Shown piece after piece: positions 9,917 to 48,089 of a stretch of DNA of 52,279 nt. The stretch is from a virus, in UHGV virus genome UHGV-0197780; one strand, given 5' to 3'. The notes below the pieces were generated by a model. It searched no databases. It saw nothing but the letters and a program-made list of their open reading frames with translations, and was not told where the DNA came from. The translations under genes and the position numbers were made by a program. The stretch's first letter is position 1. Every line of letters begins with the position of its first letter.

Positions 9917-10162
9917 ATGCTCCAGATGTTAACCCTTGAAGAGTGGGCAAACGAGAAATACAGAAGCAATCCTCCAAGTGTTTCCACTCTCAGGAATTAT
10001 GCTAAACAGAATATGTTTTCTCCCCCAGCCAAAAAAGAAGGTCGATTCTGGCGCGTCAGGGAGGATGCTGAGTTGGTCGGTACATTGACCACTCCAGTAG
10101 TAAAGAAAAGCGACCCTGTTCTTTTGCAGAGGATTTTGAACGATGGCTGCCAGACCACGTAA
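9917..10162 (+). CDS. excisionase-like protein
   Basis: Small basic protein directly upstream of int, overlapping it by 20 nt. The ATG at 9917 has a GAGGT SD. Confidence 0.5.
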   Translation: MLQMLTLEEWANEKYRSNPPSVSTLRNYAKQNMFSPPAKKEGRFWRVREDAELVGTLTTPVVKKSDPVLLQRILNDGCQTT

Positions 10163-19200: not shown

Positions 19201-22200
19201 TTCGCAGAGGATAAGCCCGATTCTGTTTGATCGACGCGCCCGGACAACACGCTTAAAGCGCTCTGATCAGCTTTTTTACTGACGTTGTTATTGGTCGTTG
19301 CCAGGTCATTTGTCAGTTTGGTGATGCTGTTACCCTGACTGGTGATCTGGTCACCCTGTTGGGAGACGGTCGAGTCCAGTGTCGAAATCGCATTGGCATT
19401 AGCGTCTGCTGTACTTTGCGCATTGTAGGCATCAGTCACTTCGGTAATGACCAGGTCATCAATGAGGAATGAGTTACCCGCCTTAACGCTGCTAACGTTA
19501 GGAATAGAAATCCTCACCATTGCCTGCTTAATACCGCTCTTTGTTGATTTCAGGTAACCAGAAACCTTCGTCCATTGAGCTGTAGACAGATCTTTCGCCG
19601 CTCTGGTTACTGCTGGCCACTGCCAGGAGTTGTCCTGATACTGGAGCGATAAGCCGACGGAAATCTGCACGTTCTCGGCCATAGCGGTACTCTTGGCATC
19701 CAGCTTAACCCAGCATTCCATATAGAAGACTGCGTTATCGCGAACCTGGAATCCGCTGAAAATGTGGGTATCAGTGTTGTCAGTTGCATTGGCATTGTAG
19801 TCATTCGGACGCGTCACACGAATGCATTTATTGCCGCCATGCGAGTCGTCAGTGGTCACGATGGCACGGTTATTCGCCAGATTGTGGCCAACCGCGTAGC
19901 TTTCAAAAGTGCCATCAGGAAGCAGATTAGCGCCGCGTTTGGATTGCTGGCTCAGAGAGCTGCTGAGCGACGTAATGTTGCTGTTCGCCGCCGTCAGACC
20001 GGACTCAGTCTTCTCCACGCGTCCGGTTAGCGAGTTCATCGCCGTCTGATCCGCTTTGCTGGCCACATTCGCGTCTGTCTGCGTCAGCGCATTCCGGAGC
20101 TGGGTGATGCTCTGCGAATTGCTGACCACATCATTGCCAATCTGGCTGACATTCGAGCTGAGTACGCCGGCTGCGTTTGCCAGCGCGGAAACACCGAGAC
20201 CGGAGTACATCTCAGCAACCTTGTCTGACAGCTTCAGGCCCAGGTTGATATACGCCTGGCCGGTCCACTGATTCACCAGAAACTCAACGGTATTCCAGCC
20301 GACTTTCAGTTCAAAACTGCCGGTAGTCCAGCTGGCATTCCCCCAGGCAACCTGAACGCCATTTACAAATACAGCGCCGGTATCATCAAAAATCCTGTTA
20401 CCGGGCGCCATTGTGATGGTGGTATCGGCGGCCACTTTCACCTGGCAGGAATACAGCGCGATCAGATAGCTGCCGGCGGATGTAAAGTCCAGTTTGGCCG
20501 CGTCGGACACCTCATCCACGACCACGGGCGCCACGGCGCGAATATCGCTGAATGACGGGACTGTCCCGGCATTAGCCAGCTGCACAGGATAGATCCGACG
20601 GGACCAGCTATTCGGCTGGCCATTGACCAGCTGATTCGACAGACTGGTGATGCTGTCAGTATTGCTTCGAATATCCTGGCCGTTTTGCTCTACCTGCTGC
20701 GTTAAGGCAGTGACCGCAGCCGCTTCGGCTTTCTTCGCCAGCGCGGCATTTGTCGTGCCCAAATCGCTCGTCAGTTTCGTGATGGACTGACCTTGGCTGG
20801 TTATCCTGTCGCCCTGCTGGGTAACCGTAGACTCCAGCCCGCTCAACGCCTCATTCGTACCAGCCAGGCCCGTTTCCGTCTGGCCCACCCGGTTAGTGAG
20901 TGATGTTAACGCGGCTCCCTGCGATGTCAGCGTGGCACCCTGTTGCTCAACTTTCTGCGTCAGGGACGTCAGCGCGGCTGCATCGGCTTTTTTCCCGAGG
21001 CTGGTTTCCAGGCCACCGATACGGCTCGCCTGCGCGCGCTGCTCTGTCGTCAGAGAACTCAGTTCACCAGAAACAGCAGCTTTGTTGTCGTTAAACTGCG
21101 TCTGCAGGGACTCTCTGGCCTTAACTTCCGCCGAGATGGCGGTAACGCGTGCGGTTTTTTCCTGGTACAGCAGCCCGGAGGTGACTTTCTCCAGATCGCT
21201 CCCATCATAGGAGCCACGCATCTGCGCCGCCAACGTGCTGCGTGCCTGCGCTTCGGCAGTCAGCGCGTTACTCAGCGTACTGCGCACATCCTGCAAAGCC
21301 GCCGTACTGGCGCCGGGTGCTGGCCGGCCAACGGCGATCCAGTCGAATTCGATAAAGTTGCTGGCATCCTGCTGGTTCGTCAGGTCCAGGCGAATACGAT
21401 CAATGTTCCCTGTCCACGGAATATCACGCACAGTCAGGGTTGCCACCCCATCGGCATATTCCGGCTCAGCAACAATGTATCGCTTCGTGTTATTGAAGTT
21501 TTCGCCGGCAGACACCCAGCGGATCTCACCCGCCCAGACTGGTTTACCGGTTTTACGAAAGCGCAGCATGATGAAGCGGTACGCCGCACCATCGACAGCC
21601 AGTCCGCCAGGAGAGGTAATGTACGGATCGGTGGCACTGTCCGCCGGGCGTAACCAGCCATCCTGGGACACACCCGGTACGCCGGCGCTGCCGGTCCAGC
21701 CCTCGGTCGTCTGATTGTTGAAATGCCAGATAACCTGCGAATCGAACTGGATATTAGCGCCGGCAGCGAGGCTGGACATTTCCCGCGCCAGATTCTCATC
21801 GGCAGTCTTCATCACCTGAGTCAGGCTCTCGATACTAGCCTCAATCCCCTGCGTTGCCGCCAGCAGTTCATCAGCGGCCTGTGCCGCCTTCGCGTTAACA
21901 TCGGCGATACGATCCGCGGTCTCCTGCTTCACTGCATTGGTCAGCGTGGTGTTAACCTGAGACAGCGACTGCTTCAGGCCATTTTCGGCAGTCTTTATCT
22001 GCGCATTCAATGCGGCATCGCCGTCGGCCAGCGTTTTGCTGACCCTGGCAATCTCCAGGTCGATGGTGGCGTTGATTTCCGCAGCCGTATCGGTGACTGA
22101 CTGTCTTACCTGGGTGATGCTGTCGGTCAACGACTTGTTCACAGTTGCGATCTGCTTGTTCGCATCTGCGACGGCGGATTTTGCCTCCTGAACGCCTTTG

Positions 22201-24947
22201 TTTGCCTGAGCCAGACCAGAATCGAGAGCCTCATTGACCGAGGTGATCTCATCCGTGATGGTTTTATTCACGGCGGAGATCTTCCCGTCAACATCAGCCG
22301 TGATGCTTTTCGCCGATGCATCAATATCCTGGCTGACCTGCTTCGCCTGGTCTTCGGCTTCCTTACGCAGAGCTTCAGCGGTCTGCTCCAGTTCCTGCTG
22401 CGTATTGCGGATACCTTCCTGTGTTTCGCTAATGGTGCGCTGCGTTTCCTCCCAGGCAGCCGTATCCTTGATCGCGTCGGTCAGGTTTTCGTAGTAGTCA
22501 TCAAAGTTATCGCTGGCCATCCCCTGGACCCAGCCGGTCCACGGGCTTTCATTGCCAAGACGATCCACAAGGCGCGCCCGATACCAGAATTCTGCGCCCA
22601 TACTGAGGCCCATCTGCTGATAGCTTTTCCCCGGATAGGCCACGTCTGATAACGGCATTGGCGCACTGCCGTCCTGGTTTTTGCTGTACTGCAGTTCCGT
22701 GCGCAGCGTATCCCCGGAGCCGGTCGGGAACTCCCAGCTAACCTGGACTCCATGAACCAGCGAACGGGTTGCCAGCGCCAGCGGTGCCAGCGGCTCGCCG
22801 ACCTTGCCGGTCAGGGTTTTCTCTTCGGAATACGCCCAGCCGCTCGAGATCTCCGCCGCATTGATCGCGCGGACGCGAACCAGGTAACGACCGGCATAAA
22901 TGCCGCTGACCTCAAACGAGGTGGTCGAGCTGCGCGGCACATTAATCCAGTTCCCGTCGTTACGGCGCCACTGCGCCTCGTAGGCAATAGCGCCGCTGAC
23001 CGCTGACCAGTTAACCTGCATCGTTTCGACGCTGATCCCCTGATTCACGACCGAGCGGGATGTGATGACAATATCGTCAGGAGGTGACTGGTTGCCCGCC
23101 GGCAATACGCTAACCGGGCGCTGATCGATAATCGCGCCGGTATCGATGCGGGCGAATTTATCCGGGTCATGTGACACGCCGGTGATCGTGAGGGTGGCAT
23201 CGCCGTTCTCTTTTACCCCTGTGACCCGGTACTGCTGCAGAAAGAGGTCATTAGATTCTACGGCCCAGACGCATTCCCGTTCTGGCGTCTCACTGTAAGC
23301 CGTTGTGACCGTAATCTGCCGGCGTCCGTTAACGGCCTGGATGGTCCGGCTCTGTGAGATCCCGGATGGCAGGTTTAGCTGGAGGCGGTCGCCAGGTTTG
23401 GCATCCACATCACGATCCAGCGTAATCACCCGGCCATTCATCGCGCTGATCCGCCCGCCGTTGACCCGTCCGGCCAGCAACTCATCCGCCAGGGCAATGA
23501 TATAACCGGGTTGAGGAATGCGCCCGTCCAGCCCCACATCAAACTCAACGACCCGGTCTTTGTTGTTGGTCAGTATGCCCCACAGCCCCTTACGGTGGGC
23601 TTCGCTCTGGCGCGTACAGCCAATCGCGGTCATTTCGAGCTGGTTAAAACTGTAGCGGGAAACCAGTTCCGGGATAAACGCCGGCTCCATTGCATCAGCA
23701 TAAGCATTATCCGGATCAGACCAGGAAACCAGGGCGTTGGTGTACCGAACCTGGCTGCTGCTGCTCGAATAACGGGGTTTGCCGACAATATTGGCGCGCG
23801 TATAGGTAAAATCGACATCACGCGGCATATCAGCCTGCACAACAATCTGCTCACCGTTCCAGCAGGTCATGCCCCGGAAAATGGCGGCAAAGTCTCGCAG
23901 CACGGTGTAAGCATCGTTGCGTTCCTGGACGTAGACGTTACAGGTATAGCGCGGCTCCATGCCGTCACCACCGCGCCCGTCAGGAACCAGCTGATCGCAG
24001 TACTGTGCAATCTGGTACAGCGTCCATTTCGAAATATTGGCGCTGCTCAGACGATTACCGAGACCAAAACGGTCAGCTGTAACAATGTCGTAATAGATCC
24101 AGGCCGGGTTATCCGTCCAGGCCCATTTAAACCCGCCGGTCCAGACGCCGGTATATTCGCGGGTTTCCGGATTGTAGTTATCCGGCACACGAATCACGCG
24201 CCCACGCGGCTCACAGGAAATTTGCGGAATGGAGCCATTAAACTGGCTGGAGTCGAACTCGATATAAAGCAGCGCGGTGTTGGGATAACGCAGCTTCGCG
24301 TCAATCACTTCGGTATAGCTCTGCAGCGTCATCACGTCGCCAACTTTGACACTGTTTGCATCCGGAGAGATTTTACGCAGGCGTAGCGTCCAGGTACTGC
24401 CGGCATGGGGCAGATCAATACGATGGCTCCGCTCATAACCGGAGGTGGTTTTACCCGTGACAGCGGTTTCCAGCACCGTCTGCCAGGCGCCGCCGTCGGT
24501 CTGCAGGTCAATCGCATACTTGACGGTATTGCCCACCACGTCGCCATCATCTTCCTGTTTCATCAGGGACGGCCATTTCAGGCGGACACGAACGGCAGAA
24601 AGCTGGGTATTAGTAAAGGTATGGGTCCAGGCTGTCTTGCTGGAAACTTCCGTTCCTACACTGATTTCATTTTCAGTACCGGGAATACCCTGAATATAAG
24701 TCTGAGCCTGCGTGCCGGGGCGAAATTCCCAGGACACGCCACTGAAGTTTTGCGAACCATCAGCATTTTCAAGCGGGGTGCCATCAAGATAAATATCTTT
24801 CCCGGTTAAACCACCTGCAAATTCACCCTCACCTAATGCGAGCAGAATTTTGGCTTTCGCAACAGACTGTAAATCATCCGGCTGTTCCGTCGGTGTACGC
24901 TGCTTTGAGCCGCCACCCTTGCGCCCTTTAATTATGTTATTTGCCAT
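13260..24947 (-). CDS. giant host-specificity / central tail fibre protein (lambda J-like N- and C-terminal regions with a ~2800-aa insertion)
   Basis: The first ~1100 aa align with lambda J (…CYPNTAL…, VPDNYNP.TR.Y.G.W.G, QYCDQ.VPDG.GG.EPR.TCN…). The C-terminal ~250 aa resemble the J receptor-binding end. The middle holds more than 20 copies of a ~45-aa TVTQQGKDI…NL.TTNANVAKKAD repeat. There are at least 5 NP(S/T)FE…DDLVITDVTD beta-sandwich CBM-like modules. A ~300-aa module is duplicated at ~80% identity, visible at nucleotide level (15300-15600 vs 16850-17150). Confidence 0.8.
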   Translation of the reverse strand: MANNIIKGRKGGGSKQRTPTEQPDDLQSVAKAKILLALGEGEFAGGLTGKDIYLDGTPLENADGSQNFSGVSWEFRPGTQAQTYIQGIPGTENEISVGTEVSSKTAWTHTFTNTQLSAVRVRLKWPSLMKQEDDGDVVGNTVKYAIDLQTDGGAWQTVLETAVTGKTTSGYERSHRIDLPHAGSTWTLRLRKISPDANSVKVGDVMTLQSYTEVIDAKLRYPNTALLYIEFDSSQFNGSIPQISCEPRGRVIRVPDNYNPETREYTGVWTGGFKWAWTDNPAWIYYDIVTADRFGLGNRLSSANISKWTLYQIAQYCDQLVPDGRGGDGMEPRYTCNVYVQERNDAYTVLRDFAAIFRGMTCWNGEQIVVQADMPRDVDFTYTRANIVGKPRYSSSSSQVRYTNALVSWSDPDNAYADAMEPAFIPELVSRYSFNQLEMTAIGCTRQSEAHRKGLWGILTNNKDRVVEFDVGLDGRIPQPGYIIALADELLAGRVNGGRISAMNGRVITLDRDVDAKPGDRLQLNLPSGISQSRTIQAVNGRRQITVTTAYSETPERECVWAVESNDLFLQQYRVTGVKENGDATLTITGVSHDPDKFARIDTGAIIDQRPVSVLPAGNQSPPDDIVITSRSVVNQGISVETMQVNWSAVSGAIAYEAQWRRNDGNWINVPRSSTTSFEVSGIYAGRYLVRVRAINAAEISSGWAYSEEKTLTGKVGEPLAPLALATRSLVHGVQVSWEFPTGSGDTLRTELQYSKNQDGSAPMPLSDVAYPGKSYQQMGLSMGAEFWYRARLVDRLGNESPWTGWVQGMASDNFDDYYENLTDAIKDTAAWEETQRTISETQEGIRNTQQELEQTAEALRKEAEDQAKQVSQDIDASAKSITADVDGKISAVNKTITDEITSVNEALDSGLAQANKGVQEAKSAVADANKQIATVNKSLTDSITQVRQSVTDTAAEINATIDLEIARVSKTLADGDAALNAQIKTAENGLKQSLSQVNTTLTNAVKQETADRIADVNAKAAQAADELLAATQGIEASIESLTQVMKTADENLAREMSSLAAGANIQFDSQVIWHFNNQTTEGWTGSAGVPGVSQDGWLRPADSATDPYITSPGGLAVDGAAYRFIMLRFRKTGKPVWAGEIRWVSAGENFNNTKRYIVAEPEYADGVATLTVRDIPWTGNIDRIRLDLTNQQDASNFIEFDWIAVGRPAPGASTAALQDVRSTLSNALTAEAQARSTLAAQMRGSYDGSDLEKVTSGLLYQEKTARVTAISAEVKARESLQTQFNDNKAAVSGELSSLTTEQRAQASRIGGLETSLGKKADAAALTSLTQKVEQQGATLTSQGAALTSLTNRVGQTETGLAGTNEALSGLESTVTQQGDRITSQGQSITKLTSDLGTTNAALAKKAEAAAVTALTQQVEQNGQDIRSNTDSITSLSNQLVNGQPNSWSRRIYPVQLANAGTVPSFSDIRAVAPVVVDEVSDAAKLDFTSAGSYLIALYSCQVKVAADTTITMAPGNRIFDDTGAVFVNGVQVAWGNASWTTGSFELKVGWNTVEFLVNQWTGQAYINLGLKLSDKVAEMYSGLGVSALANAAGVLSSNVSQIGNDVVSNSQSITQLRNALTQTDANVASKADQTAMNSLTGRVEKTESGLTAANSNITSLSSSLSQQSKRGANLLPDGTFESYAVGHNLANNRAIVTTDDSHGGNKCIRVTRPNDYNANATDNTDTHIFSGFQVRDNAVFYMECWVKLDAKSTAMAENVQISVGLSLQYQDNSWQWPAVTRAAKDLSTAQWTKVSGYLKSTKSGIKQAMVRISIPNVSSVKAGNSFLIDDLVITEVTDAYNAQSTADANANAISTLDSTVSQQGDQITSQGNSITKLTNDLATTNNNVSKKADQSALSVLSGRVDQTESGLSSANSSITALNSSVRAGNATSGDLISNPTFDPEFSQMGFTVVSSSSEGVPANCPYAYVARIAARDHHPNFAAIPATLGDVYEMSALVACGTGSADFNLYLGTATRPSGSVGAPLSSGGNRKASATWQRVTWRFKITQGIVDRGFFRPFLQINQSSPFGTVWFVTDWHMRNVTAAQKVQDTADATAAAVDSLTTTVTQQGNLLTSTGNRTTQLENGLATTNAAVAKKADATAVQNLTNTVTQLGNDLTAANSAITKLTGNLANTDKALAQKADATALATLDTKVTQQGKTLESQSNSLTNLSNSLSQVAADIDASGKIPGNLVVNPSFERGLDGYIGQSAAASVVETSTPHGGTRALRVGVGYVSPGQYVSFVQGRTYEIGVWVKDLGATTDNGAGNNKLRISNSAGQPVFERPYNSGTIGSDWTLISGRWKATETAKLPVTLSNGLTAGSRCFDDFYVIDVTDSVKIDANASALSSLQNTVTQQGKDIASQSTSITDLKNNLDTTNANVAKKADAAALQTLQNTVTQQGKDIASASSSITSLQNNLSTTNANVAKKADATALSSLQNTVTQQGKDISASNSSIANLQASINRRTVFTVTSRGIGPSVKDGVFDESGNKLVSPGRSYTMITFKVNSDNSTSIDTSKTYDVFGSANNGKTMSDDIAALANGTYVCVLTYDEPAGNRASILAAMELLGGTAEVLNSLPYRGAYILLGRKGMKAGDGLELRAPTGGAADSYISTSVEFVNGIMSGLGAGGGVMMKADANASAISTLQNTVTQQGKDITSASSQITALQNNLNTTNSNVSKKADSTTLNALQNTVTSQGDALTSQGNRVTLLENTLTVGDNIVPNSAMLNNAQGWGGHATTVDGYPAVIDTAAWAPTSPKFSVTPGDILDFSLLCLAGVAINGLAWGIRFDGPSLTNNSVYVEALNYAAGEKKAVTGTITVPAGATTGYLQPYSRNAITLTIYNIKVTRRNAGTIANAKAIADLTNEVTQQGKDITSASSDISLLKNSLATTDANVAKKADSSALSSLQSTVNQQGTSISSIGNRTTSLENGLSTAQNNIARKADASALQDLRNTVTSQGGDLTAANSSITSLQASMNRRTVFTVTARGLGNSVTPGVFDESGKNLFSPGRSWALVTFAKQSDGSAVIATSKTYDVFGSANNGDTMSADIGALTSGTYVCVLTFDEPSGNRGRLLSALESLGGTSEVVNSLPYRGAYILLGRKGMKPGDGLELRAPTGGDATAHISTSVEFVNGIMMGLGAAGGVMMKADANASAITTLQNTVKTQGGNIDSLSSSITALENSLRSTNDTVSKKADTTAVSSLTGRVSQVENTITSQSQSITSLTSSINTISTQGANPWVDGTFESYSDGHVLGGGGTAVVVASQKFTGNMSLQVSRGANNNGNSDKQLGSWQSVREDAKFRFEFWAMMPADQAPSSGWTTLVGINSLNAAGQNSWQSAVTVSEAALGGRDKWVKFTGIASNNGGGRTRAVVWISTRGASGSGTPGYSLYIDDLVITDVTDAKAAQDASDATASAVSGLTARVTDAEGKITAQAQQQTALATKVDNANSRVDNMAKTLSDSQSTQASLNTSLQSQIDAQAAANIKNQTTLDNTIKSVASITSTQQTHATALEALATQQTTLTSSVGDLSASVQNTAKTVADVNGTVSSLWSMKVETVNGKNVGAGITLGSNGETSDMILYADRFSLFNRNNATAVPVMVAEGNELYIDTARIKNSSLTSTKIADGSITNAKIGHEIRSNDFVDGSRGWRIAKDGSSQFNNVIVRGAVYATDGWFQGTVYANHIEGDIGSFAINIAQHRTRKVPKATWQWFELARFRRQNFDQVINIRGGLLQTDSITIDGGAKLRAGMSYAPGADGGLNPGYLSYAMLLRGTGATSGGGSMELGIELMYETGGATRLLTAQESMNVDNMSFVVPAGTGDAVLRYGCYLDRNGQMVLTILSRFDAFAARNNNVIRGSST

Positions 24948-24955
24948 ATTACGCC

Positions 24956-24981
24956 CATAAAAAAAGCCACCGCAAGGTGGC
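24956..24981 (-). terminator. terminator-like hairpin between tail assembly I and the J-like gene
   Basis: On the minus strand GCCACCTTGCGGTGGC is followed by TTTTTTT, 10 nt before the J ATG. Confidence 0.4.
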
Positions 24982-25009
24982 CTGAATTGGATGGTTTACT
25001 GAATAAAAA

Positions 25010-25603
25010 TTATTGCTGGTCTTCTACGTAAATACCGGCAGATATAATGGCGCCGCCAATTCGGCGTTTGCCATAAAGTAAAGGGACTGGGTATCCCTGA
25101 GAGGCAGTGTTCGTCACTCCCCCAAAGGCGTAGGACGCTTTATTGTCAGCGGATTCTTTTCGTGCCAGGCCAGCTGGCTGTGGGGAGAGCATCTGAACGA
25201 CGCCGCCGAGCATCATGGCGCCGCCAGCTTGAATACCATACGCGGCATTAGCCCAATCCTCTGTGAAAAAACCATAGACAACACTTGCCGCAACAATAAC
25301 TGCACCAAGGATTGTTTGGAGAATTCCTGCCTTCTTACTGCCAATGATAACAGGGACTATGCGGATAATTTCGCCACTTACAGGGTATCCTAAATCATCA
25401 TGCCCGATATTCTTATTCCCTTTAAATACTGCATAGGTCAATCCACGCTCCTCACTGGATATCATGAACCTTTCAAATCCAGGGATCGTCGCAGATAATG
25501 CCTCTCCGGCTTCATTGATGTTCTTTATTAAACGATAATGAACCTTCCCAAAGGTTTTACCTAGGACTCCAGACAGTTCTATTCTCGTCATGGTTTCTTG
25601 CAT
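25010..25603 (-). CDS. tail assembly protein I (lambda gpI-like)
   Basis: The C-terminus carries Gly/Ala-rich hydrophobic segments typical of gpI. It is positioned between K and J. Confidence 0.65.
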   Translation of the reverse strand: MQETMTRIELSGVLGKTFGKVHYRLIKNINEAGEALSATIPGFERFMISSEERGLTYAVFKGNKNIGHDDLGYPVSGEIIRIVPVIIGSKKAGILQTILGAVIVAASVVYGFFTEDWANAAYGIQAGGAMMLGGVVQMLSPQPAGLARKESADNKASYAFGGVTNTASQGYPVPLLYGKRRIGGAIISAGIYVEDQQ

Positions 25604-25619
25604 GCTTTATCCTTGCCAT

Positions 25620-26447
25620 TCAATTAAGATAACACTGTCTCTCCCACTCCTTATTAAAGGAAGTGGTGCCTTCATCTATTGCAGAAAAATTGACAGAAAA
25701 TATATAACGAGACTCCCCAGTGTAACCACCAAAACTATTTTTAGCGTTGATATGGCCACAGATAGCATCATTTTTTCCAATGAATTCACCAGAAAATTTA
25801 GCTGAGGAGGGGTCTTTTAGCATCCCTTTTATATGCTCCCTGGCGTTAAGGATATCATTTAGCTGTTGCTGATCTTCTTCCTTTGATTTCCTAGTAACTT
25901 CATTTTTCATTTCATCCCTCTGCTTTCTTAATTCATATGCTTCTCCAAATATTGGTGTCTGCGCATTAGTGAGGAACAAAAAGATTAAACATGCAGAGAT
26001 TGAACTCAACCCTAGGAAACCTTCTCCACCATGATTTTGGTTTGTAAAAACAAATGCAGCCATTATGGCTGGGATTAGAAAAACAAACGATATCGGTGCT
26101 CTGTAAGCATAAAAGCAGGTTATAATAAAAAATATTATGGCTATAACTAATGCTACTCTCCCAACAAGAAATTTTAGTCCACTACTATCATTGTTTTTTT
26201 GAGATGTACAGCATCGATTATCTTTATCAGTGTTTTTGGAAGATGCGTGTTTTACTGGTAAATATTCACCTACCGTTCCTGTATTAACAACGACTCCATC
26301 AGCAATCATCCTGTCCACAATTTCATCAAGAGTGTCAGGAGGAATGCGCAAGGCCTTAGATATATAATCAAAGCGCACACTCCCATCCATTTTATTAACG
26401 AAATTTACAACTTTATTGTATAACTGCTCAGTGATTGGCTCATTCAT
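25620..26447 (-). CDS. moron: wHTH-like N-domain, 3 TM helices and a C-terminal coiled-coil/soluble domain. Possible superinfection-exclusion or abortive-infection membrane protein.
   Basis: AT-rich (~33% GC) insert between the conserved K and I genes. The listed ORF begins with GTG; the ATG at 26447 has an AGGAG SD 7 nt upstream. Hydrophobic segments include FLVGRVALVIAIIFFIITCFYAY, ISFVFLIPAIMAAFVF and FLGLSSISACLIFLFL. Confidence 0.5.
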   Translation of the reverse strand: MNEPITEQLYNKVVNFVNKMDGSVRFDYISKALRIPPDTLDEIVDRMIADGVVVNTGTVGEYLPVKHASSKNTDKDNRCCTSQKNNDSSGLKFLVGRVALVIAIIFFIITCFYAYRAPISFVFLIPAIMAAFVFTNQNHGGEGFLGLSSISACLIFLFLTNAQTPIFGEAYELRKQRDEMKNEVTRKSKEEDQQQLNDILNAREHIKGMLKDPSSAKFSGEFIGKNDAICGHINAKNSFGGYTGESRYIFSVNFSAIDEGTTSFNKEWERQCYLN

Positions 26448-26493
26448 TCGCATGCTCCTGTAAATTGAATTAGGAGCATAATATACAGGCACC

Positions 26494-27204
26494 TTAAAAT
26501 AGTGAATGATGTCGCACGATTTTCATCGTCCTTTCCATCCAGTATCCACCATACGGCACGCGCTTGCTGAGATGGCCATACAGATGATGCAGGAGCATAT
26601 TTTCTTCCAGCAGAATCCCGGCGTGGTTCCACTTATCCGCCTGCACCTGCATGATCACCATATCACCCGGTTGTGGTGGACCATCAAACTCACGGAACCC
26701 GCATTCATACCAGCAGTCCTGATAAAAATTGTCCGGGTACTCCTTTTCCCACCACGGATAATCGACGCGGTAATCGTGCAGCTCGATGCCGTGGGTTTGC
26801 CGAAAATAGCTCATCACCAGGCCCCAGCAATCATAGTGGCCCAGCACGAATGGTCGCTCGAGGAGCGGCAACTCACCACGAGGGTGGATGGTACGGAGAT
26901 CGCCCTCTGGCCAGCTGATAATATGCCAGGGGAGAAGGGTCGCGTCGCATTGCGCTTTATCCAGTTCGCTCGGCTGGGTGGTGGCATCAGGATGGCTGTG
27001 AACAATACCGGTGATCGTTCCCCATTCCTCAACCTCCGCATAATCCTCCGGCGCCAGCACAAAATTATCTTTCGACTCTGTGGCCAGGTTCCGGCAGGGG
27101 AAATAACGCTCCGCTCGCCCCCTCTGGGCGACGAGGCCGCAGGCCTCGCGCGGATATTCTGTGGCCGCATGTTCCTGGATGGCCTTAATCGTTTTCTGAC
27201 GCAT
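26494..27204 (-). CDS. tail assembly protein K (lambda gpK-like, JAB/MPN + NlpC/P60)
   Basis: Carries the HSHP JAB motif and a C…H NlpC-like region. It sits upstream of L. Confidence 0.8.
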   Translation of the reverse strand: MRQKTIKAIQEHAATEYPREACGLVAQRGRAERYFPCRNLATESKDNFVLAPEDYAEVEEWGTITGIVHSHPDATTQPSELDKAQCDATLLPWHIISWPEGDLRTIHPRGELPLLERPFVLGHYDCWGLVMSYFRQTHGIELHDYRVDYPWWEKEYPDNFYQDCWYECGFREFDGPPQPGDMVIMQVQADKWNHAGILLEENMLLHHLYGHLSKRVPYGGYWMERTMKIVRHHSLF

Positions 27205-27205
27205 A

Positions 27206-27961
27206 TCAGCTCCTGATTAATGAGGTGCCGGGGAACCCGCCAAACGGCAGCTCACTATTCTCACCATGACGTAATTTGCAGGCCGTGAGCGTTCCGTTGC
27301 AGACATCCTGCGACGGGTCATCAACAGGCTGATTGTTCCTGTCAAAATACCGGGTGCCGGCATAGTCACACCCGTTACCGCTGCGGTATTGATTGCGGGT
27401 ACACCAGGTGCAAATCGCATGCAGCTGGCGAGTGGGGATCATCATCCCCTGCAGGGCAAACGGGCTGGAGAGAGTAAATTCCACCTTCTCATCGTCTTCA
27501 TAATGCTTTACATCAATGAAGAAAAGGCGCCGTTTCTCCTGCGTCGGATCAGCTGAGGCATTCCCGTCCGGAAAGTTCTTCGCATCGAGATACTGTTTTT
27601 GCGTGTCGTGGATGATAACCCGCGCCAGAGCCAGATCGTCGTAATGAAGACAGAGCGCGGATATTTTCCCGTCGATGTTCCCTACCCGCAGTGTTGGCTG
27701 CGCGTCGCTGCCAGTGGTGGATGACTCGATCCCTTCGATTACACATGGCCAGGCTTTATACTCCCGCCCCTGCCACCAGATGCTTTTCGCAGGCAGCTTA
27801 TCCAGGTCGCCGTCAGCTGCGAGGATTTCGGCTGCAGTATGGGGGACGTTATAGCCGTGGAAATACAAAATCTCATCCAGACCAAACGCCTGGCCATCGA
27901 TCTCCAGGAGACGAACCTCATCGCCTGGCTCTAATTTCTGATAATTCGCGTTAAGGCTCAT
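27206..27961 (-). CDS. minor tail protein L (lambda gpL-like)
   Basis: The sequence is gpL-like with a C-terminal Cys cluster. Gene order M-L-K-I matches lambda. Confidence 0.8.
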   Translation of the reverse strand: MSLNANYQKLEPGDEVRLLEIDGQAFGLDEILYFHGYNVPHTAAEILAADGDLDKLPAKSIWWQGREYKAWPCVIEGIESSTTGSDAQPTLRVGNIDGKISALCLHYDDLALARVIIHDTQKQYLDAKNFPDGNASADPTQEKRRLFFIDVKHYEDDEKVEFTLSSPFALQGMMIPTRQLHAICTWCTRNQYRSGNGCDYAGTRYFDRNNQPVDDPSQDVCNGTLTACKLRHGENSELPFGGFPGTSLIRS

Positions 27962-28296
27962 GGTTTAAATGCCTGAATAAATGTGGCTGACAGTGAGTAA
28001 TTTCCGCCGCCCAGCGGCACCGGTTTGTATTGTTCGCAGCGGTAAAGCCCCACCTCTTCCAGAGGCGGGGTCCACTGAAACGCGCGGGTGCCGGCATGAC
28101 GGTCGAGGAACTGCTTAATCGGACGGATATAGTCCTCCGTACCGACAAAACTCAGCTCCCAGTCCTGTGATCGGGTGTTAATACCATCGCCGGATACCTG
28201 CGCATACCCGTCACCGAATTGCGCCTTCCGGACACGAAAGTTAACGGTCTGCTGGGGATTAACCCGCGGACTCCAGGTGAATATCTCAATAGCCAT
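27958..28296 (-). CDS. minor tail protein M (lambda gpM-like)
   Basis: Size, position and sequence all fit gpM. The listed ORF starts on a TTG one codon upstream of the ATG. Confidence 0.75.
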   Translation of the reverse strand: MAIEIFTWSPRVNPQQTVNFRVRKAQFGDGYAQVSGDGINTRSQDWELSFVGTEDYIRPIKQFLDRHAGTRAFQWTPPLEEVGLYRCEQYKPVPLGGGNYSLSATFIQAFKP

Positions 28297-31200
28297 CAAC
28301 GTTGCCCTTTAACTGCATTCCAGACCATCCCGCCAGGGCGCATATCCTGCGCCATCAGCTCCCTGTATTTTTTCTCCACAAACGAGCCAATCTGCTGGCC
28401 AAACTGCTCAAAACCAGACGGTGCCTGCGTAGATGTGTTTCCGCCTTCAATCGTGATATAGACTTTTGGCCCTTCCGACGCGCCGGCGTTCTGTCCACTA
28501 CCCACCGCGCGTACCCCCAGTGAACCATCGCCGGCACGCGTCAGCGGCATGATGGCCTCCGGCCCGGCCTCGCCAAATACGCCGGCCCCTTTTGCGAAAG
28601 CGAAGAACTGCGGAGAGTCGTAGACCTGGTTGCTGTAGGCACTTAATGAAGGAGAGTCGAAGACACCGCCTTTGGCATAACCCGGTATTTGAAAGTTAAA
28701 GTTATTACCCGCATTCTGAATCGCAGTTCCTGCGCCGACATCAGCCGCTCCAGAAACACCACCTGCAATACTCACTCCAGCTCCCACCACACCCATGATG
28801 GTTTGCATGATGGTGCTGGTAACGAGAGCCTGAGCGGCCATATCAACGAGATTTTTTATGATTGACTGTGTGAGCGAGGAAAACAGGTCAGCCATGTTCT
28901 CCTTAAAGCTTCTCGTCCGCGTCAGCATGCTCGTCAGGAAGTTGCTAGAGCGCTCATGGGCCGTTTCAAATAACCCGACGGCCAAGCTCTGGAATTCGCC
29001 CTGCGATCGATATAACTCCAGCGACGTCTGATATTGCGAATCTGCAGAATCCTTCGTCGCCTTCTTCATCAGCATTTCGTACTGTTCTTTGCTGATCGCG
29101 CTGCTCTGATAGTACGACAGCAGCAAAGCCTGCCGCTGCGTTAACTGATTGCGGAGTGCTACCAGTGGATCAACCTCACCGGCGATATCCAGTTTAGGCG
29201 CCGCGATTTCGTCAGCCTTTGCCTGCAGCAGCTCTTTCGCGGTATCTCTGGCCAGCGTTATTCGTGCGGCCTGGTACTCTTTTTCATCAAGAAGGCGGGC
29301 TTTGAAAAGCTCAGCCAGGTCCCGGCTGGCTTCCTGCTCTTTTCGCAGAGTTTCCTGGGCGGGGGAATACTGCGCGGCCAGATCCAGTCGCTGTTTCTGG
29401 TAGTTCTCTGCATTCATTAACAGCGCGCGCTGCAGGTCAGCATCACTGGCGCCATTTTTCTTCGCCGCTTCCTGCAGCTCCCTGTTGCTGTCCTTTTCCT
29501 GCAGGTTAATTCTGGCCAGGCTGGATGCATGGGCTTCTTCAATTTGCTGCCGCAGCGTTTTGAACTGGTCGACCTGGGACTTACTGCCTTTCCCCGTGCC
29601 GGTACCGCCATCGCCGCCCCAGGGATTTCCATCTCCGGTCTCTTTGGGGGGCGTGCTTAACGCCCCTTTCAGATCGTCCGTAAGGGAGGTTATTTTTCCC
29701 GATAAACCCAGCTGAGCCAGTGTTTTTGCATCACTGACACGCTTAATGTTTTCCTCGGTTTTGCGGAGTCCCTCGTTAACGCTATCGAGATCCGCCCGCG
29801 CCCGCGTCTGGTCTTTTGTCACCCCTTCCAGCTGGCCGAAGGGGTCAAACCCTTTCAGGCTGTCGATACGACTGTCGGCATCCTGAATCTCTTTTATCAG
29901 CTGGTTACGCTGCACGACCTGGTTTTCGTACTTATCCTCCAGGTCGAACTGCTTCACATTTAACTGGTTAAGCGAGAGGCGCATCAGCGCTTCACTGGTT
30001 TCCACTACGGCATCTTTTAAATCAATGGCCGATTGCCGGGCTTCTTTTGCCTGTTGATGGAAATACAGTAATGCAGAGCCAGCCAGCGTCGCCGCGCCAA
30101 CCGGACCACCAACAAAAGCCAGGGCGCCTCTTGCCAGGCCCACCGCAACGGAGGCCGCACGGGCTGATATCGACAATTGCCGGTTTGCCGCTGCCAGTTT
30201 CAGTTTCGCCTGGCTGGCCAGATTGGTTTGCTCAGTTTCCTGCCGGATGAGGCGGGTAAACTCATCCTGGTAACTGATATTCATCCCGTACTGTTTAGCC
30301 GTCCGCTCCATCTGCCGGTAGTGGCCAAACTCAGCGTCGTTCTGTTTCAGGATGGCCGCTGTCGAATCCAGCGTTTTGCGGGCAATATCCGCATCAGCCT
30401 GCGCCCGCGCTTTTACCGCCGCCTGGCTTTCCCGCCAGGCCGCGATATTCTCCCGCAGCCCTGCAGTCAGTTTCGTGGATAACACGGGGATCAGGCTGTA
30501 AAGCGCCACGCTGGAGACGGTGTTGAAATTGTCTGCCAGGCTGTTCAGTGCCTCCGTGGCAACCTGAATCCCGCTGCGGAGTGGCCCGTTACTGCTCTGG
30601 CCGATCTTAATGACCATCCCTTCAAACGCACTGCTCAGCCCCAGCAAATCGCCGTTCAGGTTGTTAACCCTGATGGATGCCTGCTCATGCGCCGTTTTGG
30701 TACCGGTCAGGGAAGCGGTCAGTTCATCAAGCTTTGAACGGTTCTGGACCAGGATAGACGCCGCATTCAGGTTCTCCACGCCAAACAGTTTTACGGCCTG
30801 GGCCGTGGAGAGATTTTTCCCGGAAAGATTGGTCAGCGCCTGGCTGAGACCAACCACGGACGGCTTGAGGCTCTTGTCCGTGCCCTTTTCCAGATTCAGG
30901 ATGACGTTACGCAGCGCCGTGCCGGCTTCACCGCCTTTAATTTCACGCTCTGCCAGCACCTGAATCGCGGCATTCAGCTGCTCAAAACCAACGCCGGCCT
31001 GTGCGGCTGCAACGCCACCATTTTTAATGGCGGCCGCTGTATCCACAATCTCCGACGACCCGTACTTCGCGCCGGCGGCCAGCACGTTGATATAACGATC
31101 CGCTTCCTGCGCGCTCGCCCCGTACTGGTTTAAGGAGAGCGCCAGCGTTCTGGTCGCATCGGGCAGCGTTGTGCCGGCGGCCTGCGCCAGGATAAGCGCG

Positions 31201-31649
31201 CTGTTCGTAGCCTTCTGCAGTCCATCGGACGTTTTTAAAAGCTCCGGTTTAGCCGACGCCATCAGCTTTAACGCTTCGGCGGCCTGGCTGGCGCTGTACT
31301 CTGTCGTGCGCCCCATTTCCTGCGCAGCCAGATCCAGCGCTTTCATTTCAGCTGCAGTCGCACCGGTGATGGCCTGCAGATCTGATAACGCCTGTCCATA
31401 TTGTCTGGACGTGGTGACGATCGTACCGATGGAAAGGCCGGCTCCTGCCAGCCCCGCCAGCCGGCTGGCCATCCCGGATATCGACAGACCGACCTTCTTA
31501 TAGGCGTCTTCCGTCTTTTTCGCGTCCTCCTGGGCATTACGGTTAAACCGTCGTGACTGGTTCTCCGCATCGCCATACGCTCCCAGCAGCTGGGATTTAA
31601 AACTGGCTGCGTTCAGGTGCAGCCCGACCGCTAAAGATGCGACGTCTGC
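28296..31649 (-). CDS. tail tape measure protein
   Basis: A ~1120-aa helical Ala/Gln-rich protein between G-T and M. Its probable start is ATG 31649 (MADVASLAVG), overlapping the G-T stop (taATGg). The listed ORF starts at 31682. Confidence 0.8.
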   Translation of the reverse strand, partial: ADVASLAVGLHLNAASFKSQLLGAYGDAENQSRRFNRNAQEDAKKTEDAYKKVGLSISGMASRLAGLAGAGLSIGTIVTTSRQYGQALSDLQAITGATAAEMKALDLAAQEMGRTTEYSASQAAEALKLMASAKPELLKTSDGLQKATNSALILAQAAGTTLPDATRTLALSLNQYGASAQEADRYINVLAAGAKYGSSEIVDTAAAIKNGGVAAAQAGVGFEQLNAAIQVLAEREIKGGEAGTALRNVILNLEKGTDKSLKPSVVGLSQALTNLSGKNLSTAQAVKLFGVENLNAASILVQNRSKLDELTASLTGTKTAHEQASIRVNNLNGDLLGLSSAFEGMVIKIGQSSNGPLRSGIQVATEALNSLADNFNTVSSVALYSLIPVLSTKLTAGLRENIAAWRESQAAVKARAQADADIARKTLDSTAAILKQNDAEFGHYRQMERTAKQYGMNISYQDEFTRLIRQETEQTNLASQAKLKLAAANRQLSISARAASVAVGLARGALAFVGGPVGAATLAGSALLYFHQQAKEARQSAIDLKDAVVETSEALMRLSLNQLNVKQFDLEDKYENQVVQRNQLIKEIQDADSRIDSLKGFDPFGQLEGVTKDQTRARADLDSVNEGLRKTEENIKRVSDAKTLAQLGLSGKITSLTDDLKGALSTPPKETGDGNPWGGDGGTGTGKGSKSQVDQFKTLRQQIEEAHASSLARINLQEKDSNRELQEAAKKNGASDADLQRALLMNAENYQKQRLDLAAQYSPAQETLRKEQEASRDLAELFKARLLDEKEYQAARITLARDTAKELLQAKADEIAAPKLDIAGEVDPLVALRNQLTQRQALLLSYYQSSAISKEQYEMLMKKATKDSADSQYQTSLELYRSQGEFQSLAVGLFETAHERSSNFLTSMLTRTRSFKENMADLFSSLTQSIIKNLVDMAAQALVTSTIMQTIMGVVGAGVSIAGGVSGAADVGAGTAIQNAGNNFNFQIPGYAKGGVFDSPSLSAYSNQVYDSPQFFAFAKGAGVFGEAGPEAIMPLTRAGDGSLGVRAVGSGQNAGASEGPKVYITIEGGNTSTQAPSGFEQFGQQIGSFVEKKYRELMAQDMRPGGMVWNAVKGQR

Positions 31650-31885
31650 CATTACATTAATGCCCTCATGACTGCCGCGCATTCATCATCGACCCGGGAT
31701 GGCGCAGGTGTGGTTTCGGTAGGTGGCGCGTTTTCATCGCCAGGACGGCGGAAAGTGCCCTGTTTCAGGAAGTAGGCTCGCCAGTGGTACAGAGTGTTTG
31801 CCGGCAATGCGGCAATTTTGGATGGGTCAGGCTCGCCCCAGCGGTCGGCCAGCCAGAAGATCAGCTCCAGCCAGGGCGAGTCACT

Positions 31886-46022: not shown

Positions 46023-46333
46023 TAAATAACAGAGGGAGCTATTGCCCAACACCTCTACGCCACGGTGAGGCGAAGCAAATCAATTATGCGATATACGACG
46101 ATGTGACAAGGGTACTGATGCAATGCATCTCGCGAATACCCCCTGTCGTATCGCCGGAAAGCAAAAACCCCGCCGAGCGGCAGGGTTCTAATGGTTAAGC
46201 GGTGTGTCGAAGTGACCACTCTTAACAGATTACGATAGTTTTTGCGTACGCGTTAGTGTTTTTATATGATATTAGAAAAATCAACACGGAAGTACAAAAC
46301 GTGAGCGAGATCATAAAATTAAGAGGGCTGATG

Positions 46334-48085: not shown

Positions 48086-48089
48086 AGTT

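What the first reader, a model, noticed from the sequence alone, without database searches (positions are those of the whole stretch)
25604..26493. AT-rich membrane-protein moron wedged between conserved tail assembly genes K and I
The lambda-like block M-L-K-I-J is otherwise contiguous. A ~0.9-kb 33%-GC insert encodes a protein with a cytoplasmic wHTH-like N-domain, three TM helices and a coiled-coil plus small C-terminal domain. Morons at this spot are rare. The architecture suggests an envelope-located superinfection-exclusion or abortive-infection factor. It could alternatively be a lysogenic-conversion membrane sensor expressed from its own promoter.
Basis: inference. Interest (0 to 1): 0.6.

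Follow-up and report, generated by a model that had tools for sequence, protein, structure and literature searches.

The report
Lysogen-expressed membrane moron in tail operon
A horizontally acquired AT-rich gene between two tail-assembly genes of a Klebsiella prophage encodes an inner-membrane protein with a periplasmic domain; a near-identical copy is made in lysogens and relatives occupy the same tail-operon hot spots in many prophages, which suggests an uncharacterised phage-exclusion factor, though that function is untested.

Summary
The 890-bp interval between tail genes K and I holds one minus-strand gene (25620-26447, 275 aa; 36.7% GC against about 55% in K and L).

It is under purifying selection. 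It matches phage family phrog_16400 but no Pfam, NCBIfam or PADLOC family.

The predicted structure is an acidic cytoplasmic winged helix, a disordered linker, three membrane helices, a roughly 40-residue charged helix and a small two-cysteine periplasmic domain.

The slot is a cargo hot spot, not a rare site. Sister Klebsiella phages carry two unrelated lipoproteins, a secreted protein or nothing there.

The orthologue, NAR688 gp6 (97.5% identical), was one of nine phage proteins detected by mass spectrometry in lysogens (Byers et al. 2025). Those authors filed it under genome maintenance from its annotation alone.

Relatives recur in tail operons: directly upstream of the tape-measure gene (the HK97 gp15 position), at K-I junctions, or beside repressors. 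The periplasmic domain is unnamed and widespread (about 9,850 clusters).

Best reading: a lysogen-expressed moron that probably blocks superinfecting phage DNA entry at the inner membrane. Moron status, topology and expression are supported; the exclusion function is inferred. It is a new variant of a known kind, of moderate interest.

The parts
25620..26447 (-). Coding sequence of the insert, 275 aa (MNEPITEQ...). An alternative upstream ATG at 26453 gives 277 aa; the 290-aa GTG form is unlikely.
   Evidence: ORF list. Sequence shows AGGAG, 7 nt, then ATG. Database orthologues are 275 aa. phrog_16400 at E 1.7e-143. dN/dS 0.22-0.31.
26478..26506 (-). Sigma-70-like promoter candidate, TTCACT-17-TATTAT. 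The -35 lies in the last codons of K and the -10 lies in the insert.
   Evidence: Consensus scan. No such site in the empty-slot phage L002. The 90 bp upstream of the ORF are 92% conserved across alleles whose coding sequence is about 85% identical. This is a consensus match only; function was not shown.
26455..26459 (-). Shine-Dalgarno AGGAG
   Evidence: Read from the sequence. Invariant in four alleles.
26256..26429 (-). Cytoplasmic winged-helix domain, residues 9-66 (H1-b1-H2-H3-b2-b3), net acidic
   Evidence: AlphaFold pLDDT 81-85. Foldseek matches FtsK-gamma, Z-alpha and GntR winged helices at rmsd 1.7-1.8 A over about 60 residues. Net charge -2 to -8 in 18 of 20 family members. dN/dS 0.14.
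26178..26246 (-). Disordered, poorly conserved cytoplasmic linker, residues 70-92
   Evidence: pLDDT 32-34. dN/dS 0.69.
25959..26177 (-). Three transmembrane helices, residues 93-165, with conserved R118 and N163
   Evidence: Hydropathy analysis. AlphaFold helices. Conserved columns. In relatives, a basic insertion in loop 2 marks that loop as cytoplasmic.
25821..25958 (-). Juxtamembrane motif T-P-I-F-G-E-x-Y (P167, G170 and Y173 invariant or nearly so) followed by a charged helix of about 40 residues, 171-211
   Evidence: Alignments A1 and A5. AlphaFold pLDDT 88-92.
25623..25820 (-). Periplasmic C-terminal domain, residues 212-277. Motif LKDPSSAKF...CG-x-[VI]NAKNSFGGY-x-G; two invariant cysteines, C232 and C274.
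   Evidence: Domain-only AlphaFold model, pLDDT 94. Invariant columns. 9,850 clusters at E<=1e-3, always C-terminal to a signal peptide, lipobox or TM anchor. dN/dS 0.15.
26494..27204 (-). Flank: tail assembly gene K (Prok-JAB + NlpC/P60). Not part of the insert.
   Evidence: Pfam.
25010..25603 (-). Flank: tail assembly gene I. It starts 16 bp after the insert's stop codon, with no terminator between.
   Evidence: Weak Pfam Lambda_tail_I match. Annotated as I in KpLi5. Terminator scan.
24964..24983 (-). Intrinsic-terminator-like hairpin between I and J. This is the first terminator downstream of the insert. It is a backbone feature, not cargo.
   Evidence: Scan and fold. Identical hairpin in phages with the insert, with lipoprotein cargo and with an empty slot.

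Best explanation
Supported by the data: this is a horizontally acquired accessory gene (a moron) in a cargo hot spot between tail genes K and I of a Klebsiella lambdoid prophage. It encodes an inner-membrane protein. An acidic winged-helix domain faces the cytoplasm. Three membrane helices carry a conserved periplasm-facing motif. A charged helix of about 6 nm holds a small disulfide-bonded domain in the periplasm. The near-identical orthologue is made in lysogens.

Inferred: the protein benefits the lysogen by superinfection exclusion at the DNA-entry step. The tethered periplasmic domain and the membrane module would meet the tape-measure or tail-tip complex of an incoming siphovirus, or the host inner-membrane proteins it uses. 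This would stop formation of the DNA channel, as HK97 gp15 and P22 SieA do. The winged helix, absent from most relatives, would be an accessory protein-binding module, not a DNA binder.
For: Moron status:
- GC is 36.7% against about 55% in the flanks.
- The slot is empty in Kp4865-4, with a 31-bp K-I gap.
- Sister phages with flanks about 89-97% identical to the window carry unrelated envelope proteins there. These are a 140-aa lipoprotein (phrog_890), a 116-aa lipoprotein (phrog_914) and a 115-aa secreted protein (phrog_13007).
- Only 53 of 180 related plasmid-prophage records carry this cargo.
- The cassette's dS (0.38-0.46) is far below that of flanking K (1.2) and I (2.8-3.9) in the same phage pairs, so it was exchanged more recently.

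Expression:
- NAR688 gp6 lies between the I and K homologues (Table S1). It is 97.5% identical to the window protein.
- It was one of nine phage proteins detected by MS in a mid-log lysogen. Capsid, TMP, K, I and J were not detected (PMC12042878).
- A conserved promoter-like site and RBS lie upstream.

Topology:
- Three TM helices are predicted.
- The C-domain has two invariant cysteines.
- In thousands of relatives that domain follows a signal peptide, lipobox or TM anchor.

Context pointing to exclusion:
- 454 relatives were found in viral contigs.
- Among 29 distinct clusters from the best 80 loci, 10 sit immediately upstream of the tape-measure gene, 2 sit one ORF away, 3 sit at K-I junctions and 1 sits among distal tail genes before J.
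- The same placements recur in the Serratia, E. coli/Atlantibacter, Rosenbergiella, Yersinia, Pseudomonas and Klebsiella loci examined individually.
- The position upstream of TMP is that of HK97 gp15, an inner-membrane exclusion protein whose action depends on the incoming tail (PMC3594210).
- Other relatives sit divergently beside Xre/cI-like repressors, or in a P4-like element.
Against: - No functional test exists for any family member.
- There is no sequence or profile similarity to HK97 gp15 or P22 SieA, no PADLOC hit and no solved structural relative of the C-domain.
- The G/T-TMP and K-I junctions may simply be permissive insertion sites, so position need not reflect function.
- The gene lies in the late operon without its own terminator. 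It is therefore also made late in lytic growth.
- The NAR688 lysogen signal could partly reflect spontaneous induction, because the tail-tube protein was also detected.
- The conserved winged helix (dN/dS 0.14) is not explained by a simple blocking model.
- About 13 of 29 viral clusters lie in contexts I could not classify.
Confidence: 0.45

Rival explanations
1. Lysogenic-conversion envelope factor with no anti-phage role. The periplasmic domain would alter envelope physiology, for example stress tolerance, bacteriocin or telocin uptake, or host interaction. This would parallel lambda Bor/Lom, or Cor's protection against colicin M.
For: It is expressed in lysogens. The alternative cargo at the same slot consists of lipoproteins and secreted proteins of unknown function. 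The C-domain family is very widespread, and in the records listed every member with a name is called hypothetical, so it need not be phage-specific. Telomere phages of this group do arm their hosts with envelope-acting toxins.
Against: The strong, repeated placement next to TMP and tail-tip genes in at least 16 of 29 distinct viral clusters is not predicted by a general envelope role. Chromosomal relatives that were examined sit in prophages or mobile elements.
Confidence: 0.2
2. Membrane-tethered sensor or regulator. The periplasmic domain senses an envelope signal and the cytoplasmic winged helix passes it on to DNA or to a partner protein. The output would be prophage maintenance or the lysis-lysogeny decision. 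Byers et al. grouped gp6 with genome regulation and maintenance proteins.
For: The architecture resembles ToxR/CadC-type and RodZ-type proteins: cytoplasmic (w)HTH, TM segment, periplasmic domain. The winged helix is fold-similar to FtsK-gamma and GntR winged helices. It is under strong purifying selection. NAR688 gp6 is annotated 'DNA recombinase/translocase domain-containing'.
Against: The winged helix is net acidic in 18 of 20 members. Its 'recognition' helix (PDTLDEIVDRMIAD) and wing lack conserved basic residues. There is no Pfam FtsK_gamma or OmpR-type hit. Most relatives lack the winged helix altogether yet occupy the same genomic positions, including a K-I junction in Serratia. The gene is replaceable by lipoproteins or by nothing, so it cannot be needed for maintenance. 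The published grouping rests on annotation only.
Confidence: 0.12
3. Abortive-infection effector. The three-helix membrane module is held inactive. It permeabilises the inner membrane when the periplasmic domain detects an incoming tail, killing the infected cell.
For: The TM module has conserved polar and juxtamembrane residues beyond what an anchor needs (R118, N163, P167, G170, Y173). The same prophage carries other AT-rich candidate defence genes, SIR2-STAND and an AAA_21 ATPase.
Against: No similarity to known Abi or pore-forming defence proteins. Carriage of NAR688 did not change the growth rate of its lysogens, in one of which gp6 was detected. C-domain relatives with only a signal peptide or lipid anchor have no membrane effector.
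Confidence: 0.1
4. Structural or assembly component of the tail tip, needed for virion production.
For: It lies inside the tail operon on the same strand, 16 bp before I, with no terminator.
Against: It is absent from, or replaced by unrelated genes in, phages with near-identical K, I, L and J. It has deviant GC. It is a polytopic membrane protein. dN/dS is six-fold higher than for K and I.
Confidence: 0.03

Closest known systems
Klebsiella telomere phage NAR688 gp6 (Byers et al., Sci Adv 2025, PMC12042878)
   Same: Orthologue: 97.5% identical protein in the same K-X-I arrangement, with 98.7% DNA identity over 2.4 kb. Detected in the lysogen proteome.
   Different: NAR688 is a linear-plasmid (telomere) prophage. 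This window is an integrative lambdoid prophage with a lambda-type integrase that shares the structural cassette. The paper annotated gp6 as a DNA recombinase/translocase-domain protein and grouped it with genome maintenance. It did not note the membrane topology, the moron status or the periplasmic domain.
HK97 gp15 (YebO-like), the first described moron, a superinfection-exclusion protein
   Same: A tail-operon moron, expressed from the prophage, located in the inner membrane. Its exclusion depends on the incoming phage's tail. Many relatives of the present protein occupy the same position directly upstream of the tape-measure gene.
   Different: No sequence similarity. gp15 is 62 aa with a single pass. 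This protein is 275 aa with three TM helices plus folded domains on both sides. gp15 has its own terminator; this gene does not.
P22 SieA
   Same: [quoted passage not shown] Its gene sits beside the ejection-protein genes.
   Different: No sequence or profile similarity. SieA acts on podovirus ejection proteins. SieA is transcribed opposite to its neighbours from its own promoter.
Cor and Llp-type exclusion lipoproteins (phi80, N15, T1, T5)
   Same: Small envelope proteins encoded next to tail or receptor-binding genes, protecting the lysogen (for Cor). The alternative cargo at this K-I slot consists of lipoproteins.
   Different: Cor and Llp act on the outer-membrane receptor FhuA and are lipid-anchored. 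The present protein is an integral inner-membrane protein, and no similarity was seen. This comparison rests partly on my own knowledge and was not tested by alignment.
ToxR/CadC-like and RodZ-like bitopic proteins (cytoplasmic HTH, TM, periplasmic domain)
   Same: The overall layout: a cytoplasmic (winged) helix-turn-helix, a membrane segment and a periplasmic domain.
   Different: Three TM helices instead of one. The winged helix is acidic with no conserved basic surface. No Pfam match to Trans_reg_C, HTH_25 or DUF4115. The winged helix is dispensable in most relatives.

Membership tests
Moron (Juhala/Hendrix definition) | Extra DNA present in some, but absent from other, otherwise collinear relatives | tested here: met
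   Empty slot in Kp4865-4 (31-bp gap). Different genes in ST846-OXA48phi9.1, p1_040035 and a K. aerogenes plasmid.
Moron (Juhala/Hendrix definition) | Base composition differs from the surrounding genes | tested here: met
   GC 36.7%, GC3 30%, against K 55%/64% and L 54%/63%.
Moron (Juhala/Hendrix definition) | Own promoter | tested here: inconclusive
   TTCACT-17-TATTAT matches 9 of 12 positions, and such matches are no more frequent than in shuffled sequence. It is conserved across diverged alleles and absent from the empty-slot phage. No transcript data.
Moron (Juhala/Hendrix definition) | Own terminator | tested here: not met
   Only 16 bp separate the stop codon from the I start, with no hairpin. 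The first terminator-like site is the backbone hairpin between I and J.
Moron (Juhala/Hendrix definition) | Expressed from the repressed prophage | not testable with these tools
   Published MS detected the 97.5%-identical NAR688 gp6 in a mid-log lysogen, among only nine phage proteins (PMC12042878). Spontaneous induction was not excluded.
PHROG phrog_16400 | Full-length profile match | tested here: met
   E 1.7e-143, profile positions 1-272 of 272. The family has no annotated function.
HK97 gp15 / YebO family | Sequence similarity | tested here: not met
   BLASTP finds no alignment at E<=100.
P22 SieA family | Sequence or profile similarity | tested here: not met
   BLASTP best E 0.39 over 11 residues. 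hhalign probability 1%.
FtsK-gamma / DNA-binding winged helix (basis of the NAR688 annotation) | Winged-helix fold | tested here: met
   Foldseek: 2j5p at rmsd 1.7 A over 59 columns, TM 0.72 normalised to the target; also Z-alpha and GntR winged helices. E-values are weak (0.02-0.2).
FtsK-gamma / DNA-binding winged helix (basis of the NAR688 annotation) | Family-level sequence match and a basic DNA-contacting helix and wing | tested here: not met
   No FtsK_gamma Pfam hit; only sub-threshold RPA_C and PCI matches. Domain net charge is -2 to -8 in 18 of 20 members, and H3 and the wing are acidic or neutral.
Known anti-phage defence systems (PADLOC-DB 2.0) | Match to any defence-protein model | tested here: not met
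   No families at E<=0.1.
Superinfection-exclusion proteins (functional class) | Blocks infection after adsorption when expressed alone | not testable with these tools
   Needs plating and DNA-entry assays. Only contextual evidence was obtained here.
Periplasmic or extracytoplasmic location of the C-domain | Export signals and disulfide cysteines | tested here: met
   Two invariant Cys. Homologous domains follow signal peptides, lipoboxes or TM anchors in all 150 best representatives inspected. An odd number of TM helices plus a basic cytoplasmic loop-2 insertion in relatives. This is prediction only.

The most novel reading that the evidence does not exclude
The roughly 80-residue C-terminal domain (LKDPxSAxF...CGxVNAKNSFGGYxG...W...C) has about 9,850 clusters at 50% identity and no Pfam or NCBIfam name. 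It may define a large, unrecognised class of prophage-encoded, membrane-tethered periplasmic proteins that exclude siphoviruses. They would do so by engaging the tape-measure or tail-tip complex during DNA entry. The winged-helix plus three-TM form found here would add a cytoplasmic output, coupling detection of an incoming tail to a response inside the cell.
Probability: 0.25. Interest if true: 0.75.

Novelty: new variant of a known kind. Interest (0 to 1): 0.5.

Why it matters
Few inner-membrane proteins that block phage DNA entry have been studied (HK97 gp15, P22 SieA, T4 Imm). How siphovirus DNA crosses the periplasm and inner membrane is still poorly understood.

This gene belongs to a family that repeatedly sits beside the tape-measure and tail-tip genes of many prophages. 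Its near-identical orthologue is demonstrably made in lysogens of a phage group reported in about 11.6% of surveyed Klebsiella genomes (Byers et al. 2025). Its periplasmic domain is very widespread and unnamed.

If the family excludes phages, three things would follow:
- It would affect phage-therapy host range in Klebsiella.
- It would give a new handle on the DNA-entry step.
- It would correct a published annotation that files the protein under genome maintenance.

If it does not, it is still a clean example of a cargo hot spot inside a tail operon.

Tried and rejected
Searches that found nothing:
- Pfam, NCBIfam and PADLOC scans of the protein, and Pfam scans of ten diverse C-domain relatives, gave nothing above threshold.
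- A PDB sequence search gave only noise.
- Foldseek of the C-domain model against the PDB gave no hit better than E 0.3, with faint SnoaL/NTF2-like matches.
- Foldseek against BFVD gave only uncharacterised phage proteins.
- A homologue search with the bare C-domain was limited by the word index and returned only Klebsiella fragments. A profile search returned 1,097 proteins; among the 120 best listed, every source name was hypothetical or 'secreted protein' and no Pfam domain covered the C-domain.

Ideas considered and rejected:
- An inhibitor of K's NlpC/P60 peptidase, analogous to T4 Spackle or IseA. Many relatives sit beside TMP and not beside K, and the IseA-complex Foldseek hit was at noise level (E 1.2).
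- A holin or lysis function. The gene is not in a lysis cassette and has folded soluble domains on both sides of the membrane.
- A DNA-binding role for the winged helix, because of its acidic surface.
- The I-J terminator as part of the insert. It is identical in phages without the insert.
Full report
**1. The observation**

The tail genes lie on the minus strand in lambda order: tape measure H 28296-31682, M 27958-28299, L 27206-27961, K 26494-27204 (Prok-JAB + NlpC/P60), I 25010-25603 and a 3,895-aa J 13260-24947. M, L and K abut or overlap.

That interval holds one long minus-strand ORF. The mechanical GTG start gives 290 aa. The sequence shows AGGAG followed by two ATGs. The second (26447) lies 7 nt from the Shine-Dalgarno and gives the 275-aa product found in all database orthologues. 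Residue numbers below run from the first ATG (26453); subtract 2 for the 275-aa form.

GC is 36.7% (GC3 30%). K has 55% (GC3 64%), L 54% and I 47%; the window mean is 50%.

The ORF is a real gene. It matches phage family phrog_16400 end to end at E 1.7e-143. Between alleles about 85% identical in nucleotides, dN/dS is 0.22-0.31.

**2. Anatomy**

An AlphaFold2 model built on 14 homologues (mean pLDDT 76) gives:
- a winged helix H1-b1-H2-H3-b2-b3 at residues 9-66;
- a disordered segment at 70-92;
- three hydrophobic helices at 91-116, 121-140 and 144-165;
- one long helix at 171-211;
- a compact helix, four-strand, helix domain to the C-terminus.

A domain-only model of the last 88 residues, built on 115 homologues, reaches pLDDT 94.

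The N-domain superposes on small winged helices (FtsK-gamma, Z-alpha, GntR-type) at 1.7-1.8 A over about 60 residues.

The long helix is E/K/R-rich without a heptad hydrophobic pattern. I read it as a single-helix spacer of about 6 nm and not a coiled coil; this is inference from the sequence.

The topology N-in/C-out rests on four points:
- The number of TM helices is odd.
- The segment before TM1 is basic.
- Relatives carry a basic insertion in loop 2.
- The C-domain has two invariant cysteines, C232 and C274. In 150 inspected relatives the homologous domain always follows a signal peptide, a lipobox, a single TM anchor or a zinc ribbon plus TM.

Selection is strongest on the two end domains: winged helix 0.14 and C-domain 0.15. 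It is weakest on the linker at 0.69.

The membrane module is more than an anchor. R118, N163 and the juxtamembrane motif T-P-I-F-G-E-x-Y (P167, G170, Y173) are invariant or nearly so across the family.

**3. The K-I junction is a cargo hot spot**

- In Klebsiella phage Kp4865-4, K and I are 31 bp apart with nothing between them.
- In ST846-OXA48phi9.1 the slot holds an unrelated 116-aa lipoprotein with lipobox LTGC (phrog_914).
- In plasmid-prophage p1_040035 it holds a 140-aa lipoprotein (phrog_890).
- In a K. aerogenes element it holds a 115-aa secreted protein (phrog_13007).
- Of 180 PLSDB records that match the flanks, 53 carry the present gene. Some have an ISKpn26 in the region.

Homology with the empty-slot phage ends at the K stop codon and resumes at the I start. 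The insert is therefore precisely intergenic.

Between the same phage pairs, synonymous divergence of the insert (0.38-0.46) is much lower than that of K (1.2) or I (2.8-3.9). The cassette has thus moved between backbones more recently than the backbones diverged.

**4. Expression**

A sigma-70-like site (TTCACT-17-TATTAT, 26506-26478) lies just upstream. The -35 falls in K's last codons and the -10 in the insert.

It is only a 9-of-12 match, and such matches are not enriched over shuffled sequence. However, the 90 bp upstream are 92% conserved among alleles whose coding sequence is about 85% identical. No such site exists in the empty-slot phage.

There is no terminator before I. The first is a hairpin between I and J, identical in phages with and without the insert, so it belongs to the backbone.

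The decisive evidence is published. In the Klebsiella telomere phage NAR688, gp6 is the gene between gp5 (tail assembly protein) and gp7 (C40 peptidase) (Table S1). The NAR688 region is 98.7% identical to the window over 2.4 kb in one piece, and the protein is 97.5% identical.

gp6 was one of only nine phage proteins detected by mass spectrometry in a mid-log lysogen. The major tail-tube protein was the only structural protein detected; capsid, TMP, K, I and J are not among the nine (PMC12042878). [quoted passage not shown] They did not examine it further.

One caveat applies. The tail-tube protein was also seen, so some signal from spontaneously induced cells cannot be excluded.

**5. Where relatives are found**

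Close and distant homologues are few at full length: 15 in the indexed search and 33 clusters at E<=1e-30 in the exhaustive search. Many lack the winged helix.

Their positions are informative:
- Serratia: K-I junction.
- E. coli/Atlantibacter and Rosenbergiella: directly upstream of the tape-measure gene, among other morons such as YafO, Arc and Bro/Ant.
- Yersinia: between the major tail and tape-measure genes.
- Klebsiella phage vB_VIPKPNMC05: directly upstream of the tape measure.
- A Pseudomonas prophage: a C-domain-only form directly upstream of the tape measure.
- Edaphovirga: a full-length form in an integrase-AlpA-primase (P4-like) element.
- Xanthomonas and Stenotrophomonas: C-domain-only forms divergent from Xre/cI-like repressors, one next to an AbiJ-like gene.

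A scan of IMG/VR found 454 relatives. I grouped the best 80 loci into 29 clusters at 60% identity:
- 10 clusters sit immediately upstream of a tape-measure(-like) gene.
- 2 sit one small ORF away.
- 3 sit at K-I junctions, including 129-131-aa C-domain-only forms.
- 1 sits between distal tail genes and DUF6950-J.
- 13 were unclassified.

The gene calling in that survey was crude, and tape-measure genes were recognised by seed homology or length. The counts are approximate.

**6. The C-terminal domain**

A profile search of 1.84 billion representatives found 9,850 clusters at E<=1e-3 and 1,993 at E<=1e-10. Most are proteins of 80-230 aa.

**7. The winged helix**

It is net acidic in 18 of 20 family members. 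Its third helix (PDTLDEIVDRMIAD here) and its wing carry no conserved basic residues. Pfam gives only sub-threshold RPA_C and PCI matches, both protein-binding winged helices.

A DNA-binding or translocase role is therefore unlikely. A protein-protein role is more plausible; this is inference.

**8. Mechanism**

Supported by the data:
- It is a dispensable, horizontally acquired cassette.
- It encodes an N-in/C-out inner-membrane protein.
- It is made in lysogens.
- Its family recurs in prophages at tail-operon junctions and beside repressors.

Inferred: the protein protects the lysogen by interfering with DNA entry of superinfecting siphoviruses at the periplasm and inner membrane.

The reasons are:
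- The position upstream of TMP is that of HK97 gp15, an inner-membrane exclusion protein whose effect depends on the incoming tail (PMC3594210).
- P22 SieA is likewise an inner-membrane protein, encoded beside the ejection-protein genes, that blocks the DNA conduit.
- The alternative cargo at this slot consists of envelope proteins.
- The same prophage carries other AT-rich candidate defence genes.

I put this at about 0.45. The rivals are:
- an envelope conversion factor unrelated to phage (0.2);
- a membrane-tethered sensor or regulator using the winged helix (0.12);
- an abortive-infection membrane effector (0.1);
- a structural tail component (0.03).

The main weaknesses are three. No family member has been tested. 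These junctions may simply be permissive insertion sites. The blocking model does not explain why the winged helix is so well conserved.

**9. Comparison with known systems**

It works like a moron but fails one classical criterion, an own terminator. It is not a member of the gp15/YebO or SieA families, nor of any PADLOC family. It is the orthologue of NAR688 gp6 and a member of phrog_16400, both without assigned function.

**10. Verdict**

The gene is already catalogued, and its expression in lysogens has been reported in passing.

Three things appear not to have been described:
- its identity as an inner-membrane moron;
- the recurrent association of its family with tape-measure and tail-tip junctions;
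- the size of the unnamed periplasmic domain family.

I rate it a new variant of a known kind, with interest 0.5.

Noticed in passing
window 117-2459 (-): AT-rich (33-37% GC) 780-aa ORF with SIR2_2 and novel STAND NTPase 5 domains. It is a candidate SIR2-STAND (Avs-like) anti-phage defence gene at the prophage edge.
   Followed up: partly
window 46256-49139 (+): A second AT-rich island (34-42% GC). It holds a 609-aa AAA_21/AAA_15 ATPase (AbiEii/OLD-like) followed by a C5 cytosine DNA methylase, a possible defence or modification pair.
   Followed up: partly
window 10143-11270 (+), 7726-9864 (+), 3820-4839 (-), 5738-6187 (+): The window is an integrative lambdoid prophage: lambda-type integrase, a RecE/ExoVIII-like protein with an Rv2179c-like exonuclease domain, a DnaT/HTH_36 replication protein and a cI-like HTH_3 protein. 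Its structural module is near-identical to that of linear-plasmid telomere phages such as NAR688. The same tail cassette therefore circulates between integrative and telomere phages.
   Followed up: partly
window 13260-24947 (-): The J-type tip/host-specificity protein is 3,895 aa, more than three times lambda J. It has long internally repeated coiled and Ig-like/carbohydrate-binding segments. Orthologues in relatives range from roughly 3,100 to 4,230 aa by annotated gene length.
   Followed up: no
window 24964-24983 (-): A strong terminator-like hairpin (8-bp stem, T-run) lies inside the late operon between I and J. It is identical in all relatives examined. It would end any lysogenic transcript from the K-I cargo before J.
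   Followed up: partly
L001 2238-2588; L018 1031-1453; L019 1062-1409: Alternative cargo at the same K-I slot: two unrelated lipoproteins (116 aa phrog_914; 140 aa phrog_890) and a 115-aa secreted protein (phrog_13007). All are envelope-targeted and of unknown function.
   Followed up: partly
L017 861-959 (HK97 13560-13658): The 320-bp K-I gap of HK97 contains an unannotated 32-aa hydrophobic ORF (MYTVGFGWIFVGIFIGLILWFFINRASVRANR) upstream of the annotated putative terminator. It may be a tiny membrane-protein moron at the equivalent junction.
   Followed up: no
proteins P0051, P0052, P0059, P0065, P0070 and others: A large sub-class of C-domain proteins has a conserved N-terminal cytoplasmic zinc ribbon (MALxKCKECGxxVSxxAxxCPxCG), one TM helix and then the periplasmic domain. 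This is a second architecture pairing a small cytoplasmic module with this domain.
   Followed up: no
L005 3803-8828: A full-length relative (30% identical, with the winged helix) sits as cargo after the primase gene of a small integrase-AlpA-D5 primase element in Edaphovirga, next to a Fic gene. This resembles a P4-like satellite or defence-hot-spot position.
   Followed up: no
PLSDB hits H73 and H79 (NZ_CP087648.1, NZ_CP074117.1): In some Klebsiella phage-plasmids an IS5-family ISKpn26 is annotated within the K-I span, which is about 1.2 kb longer than in sister records.
   Followed up: no
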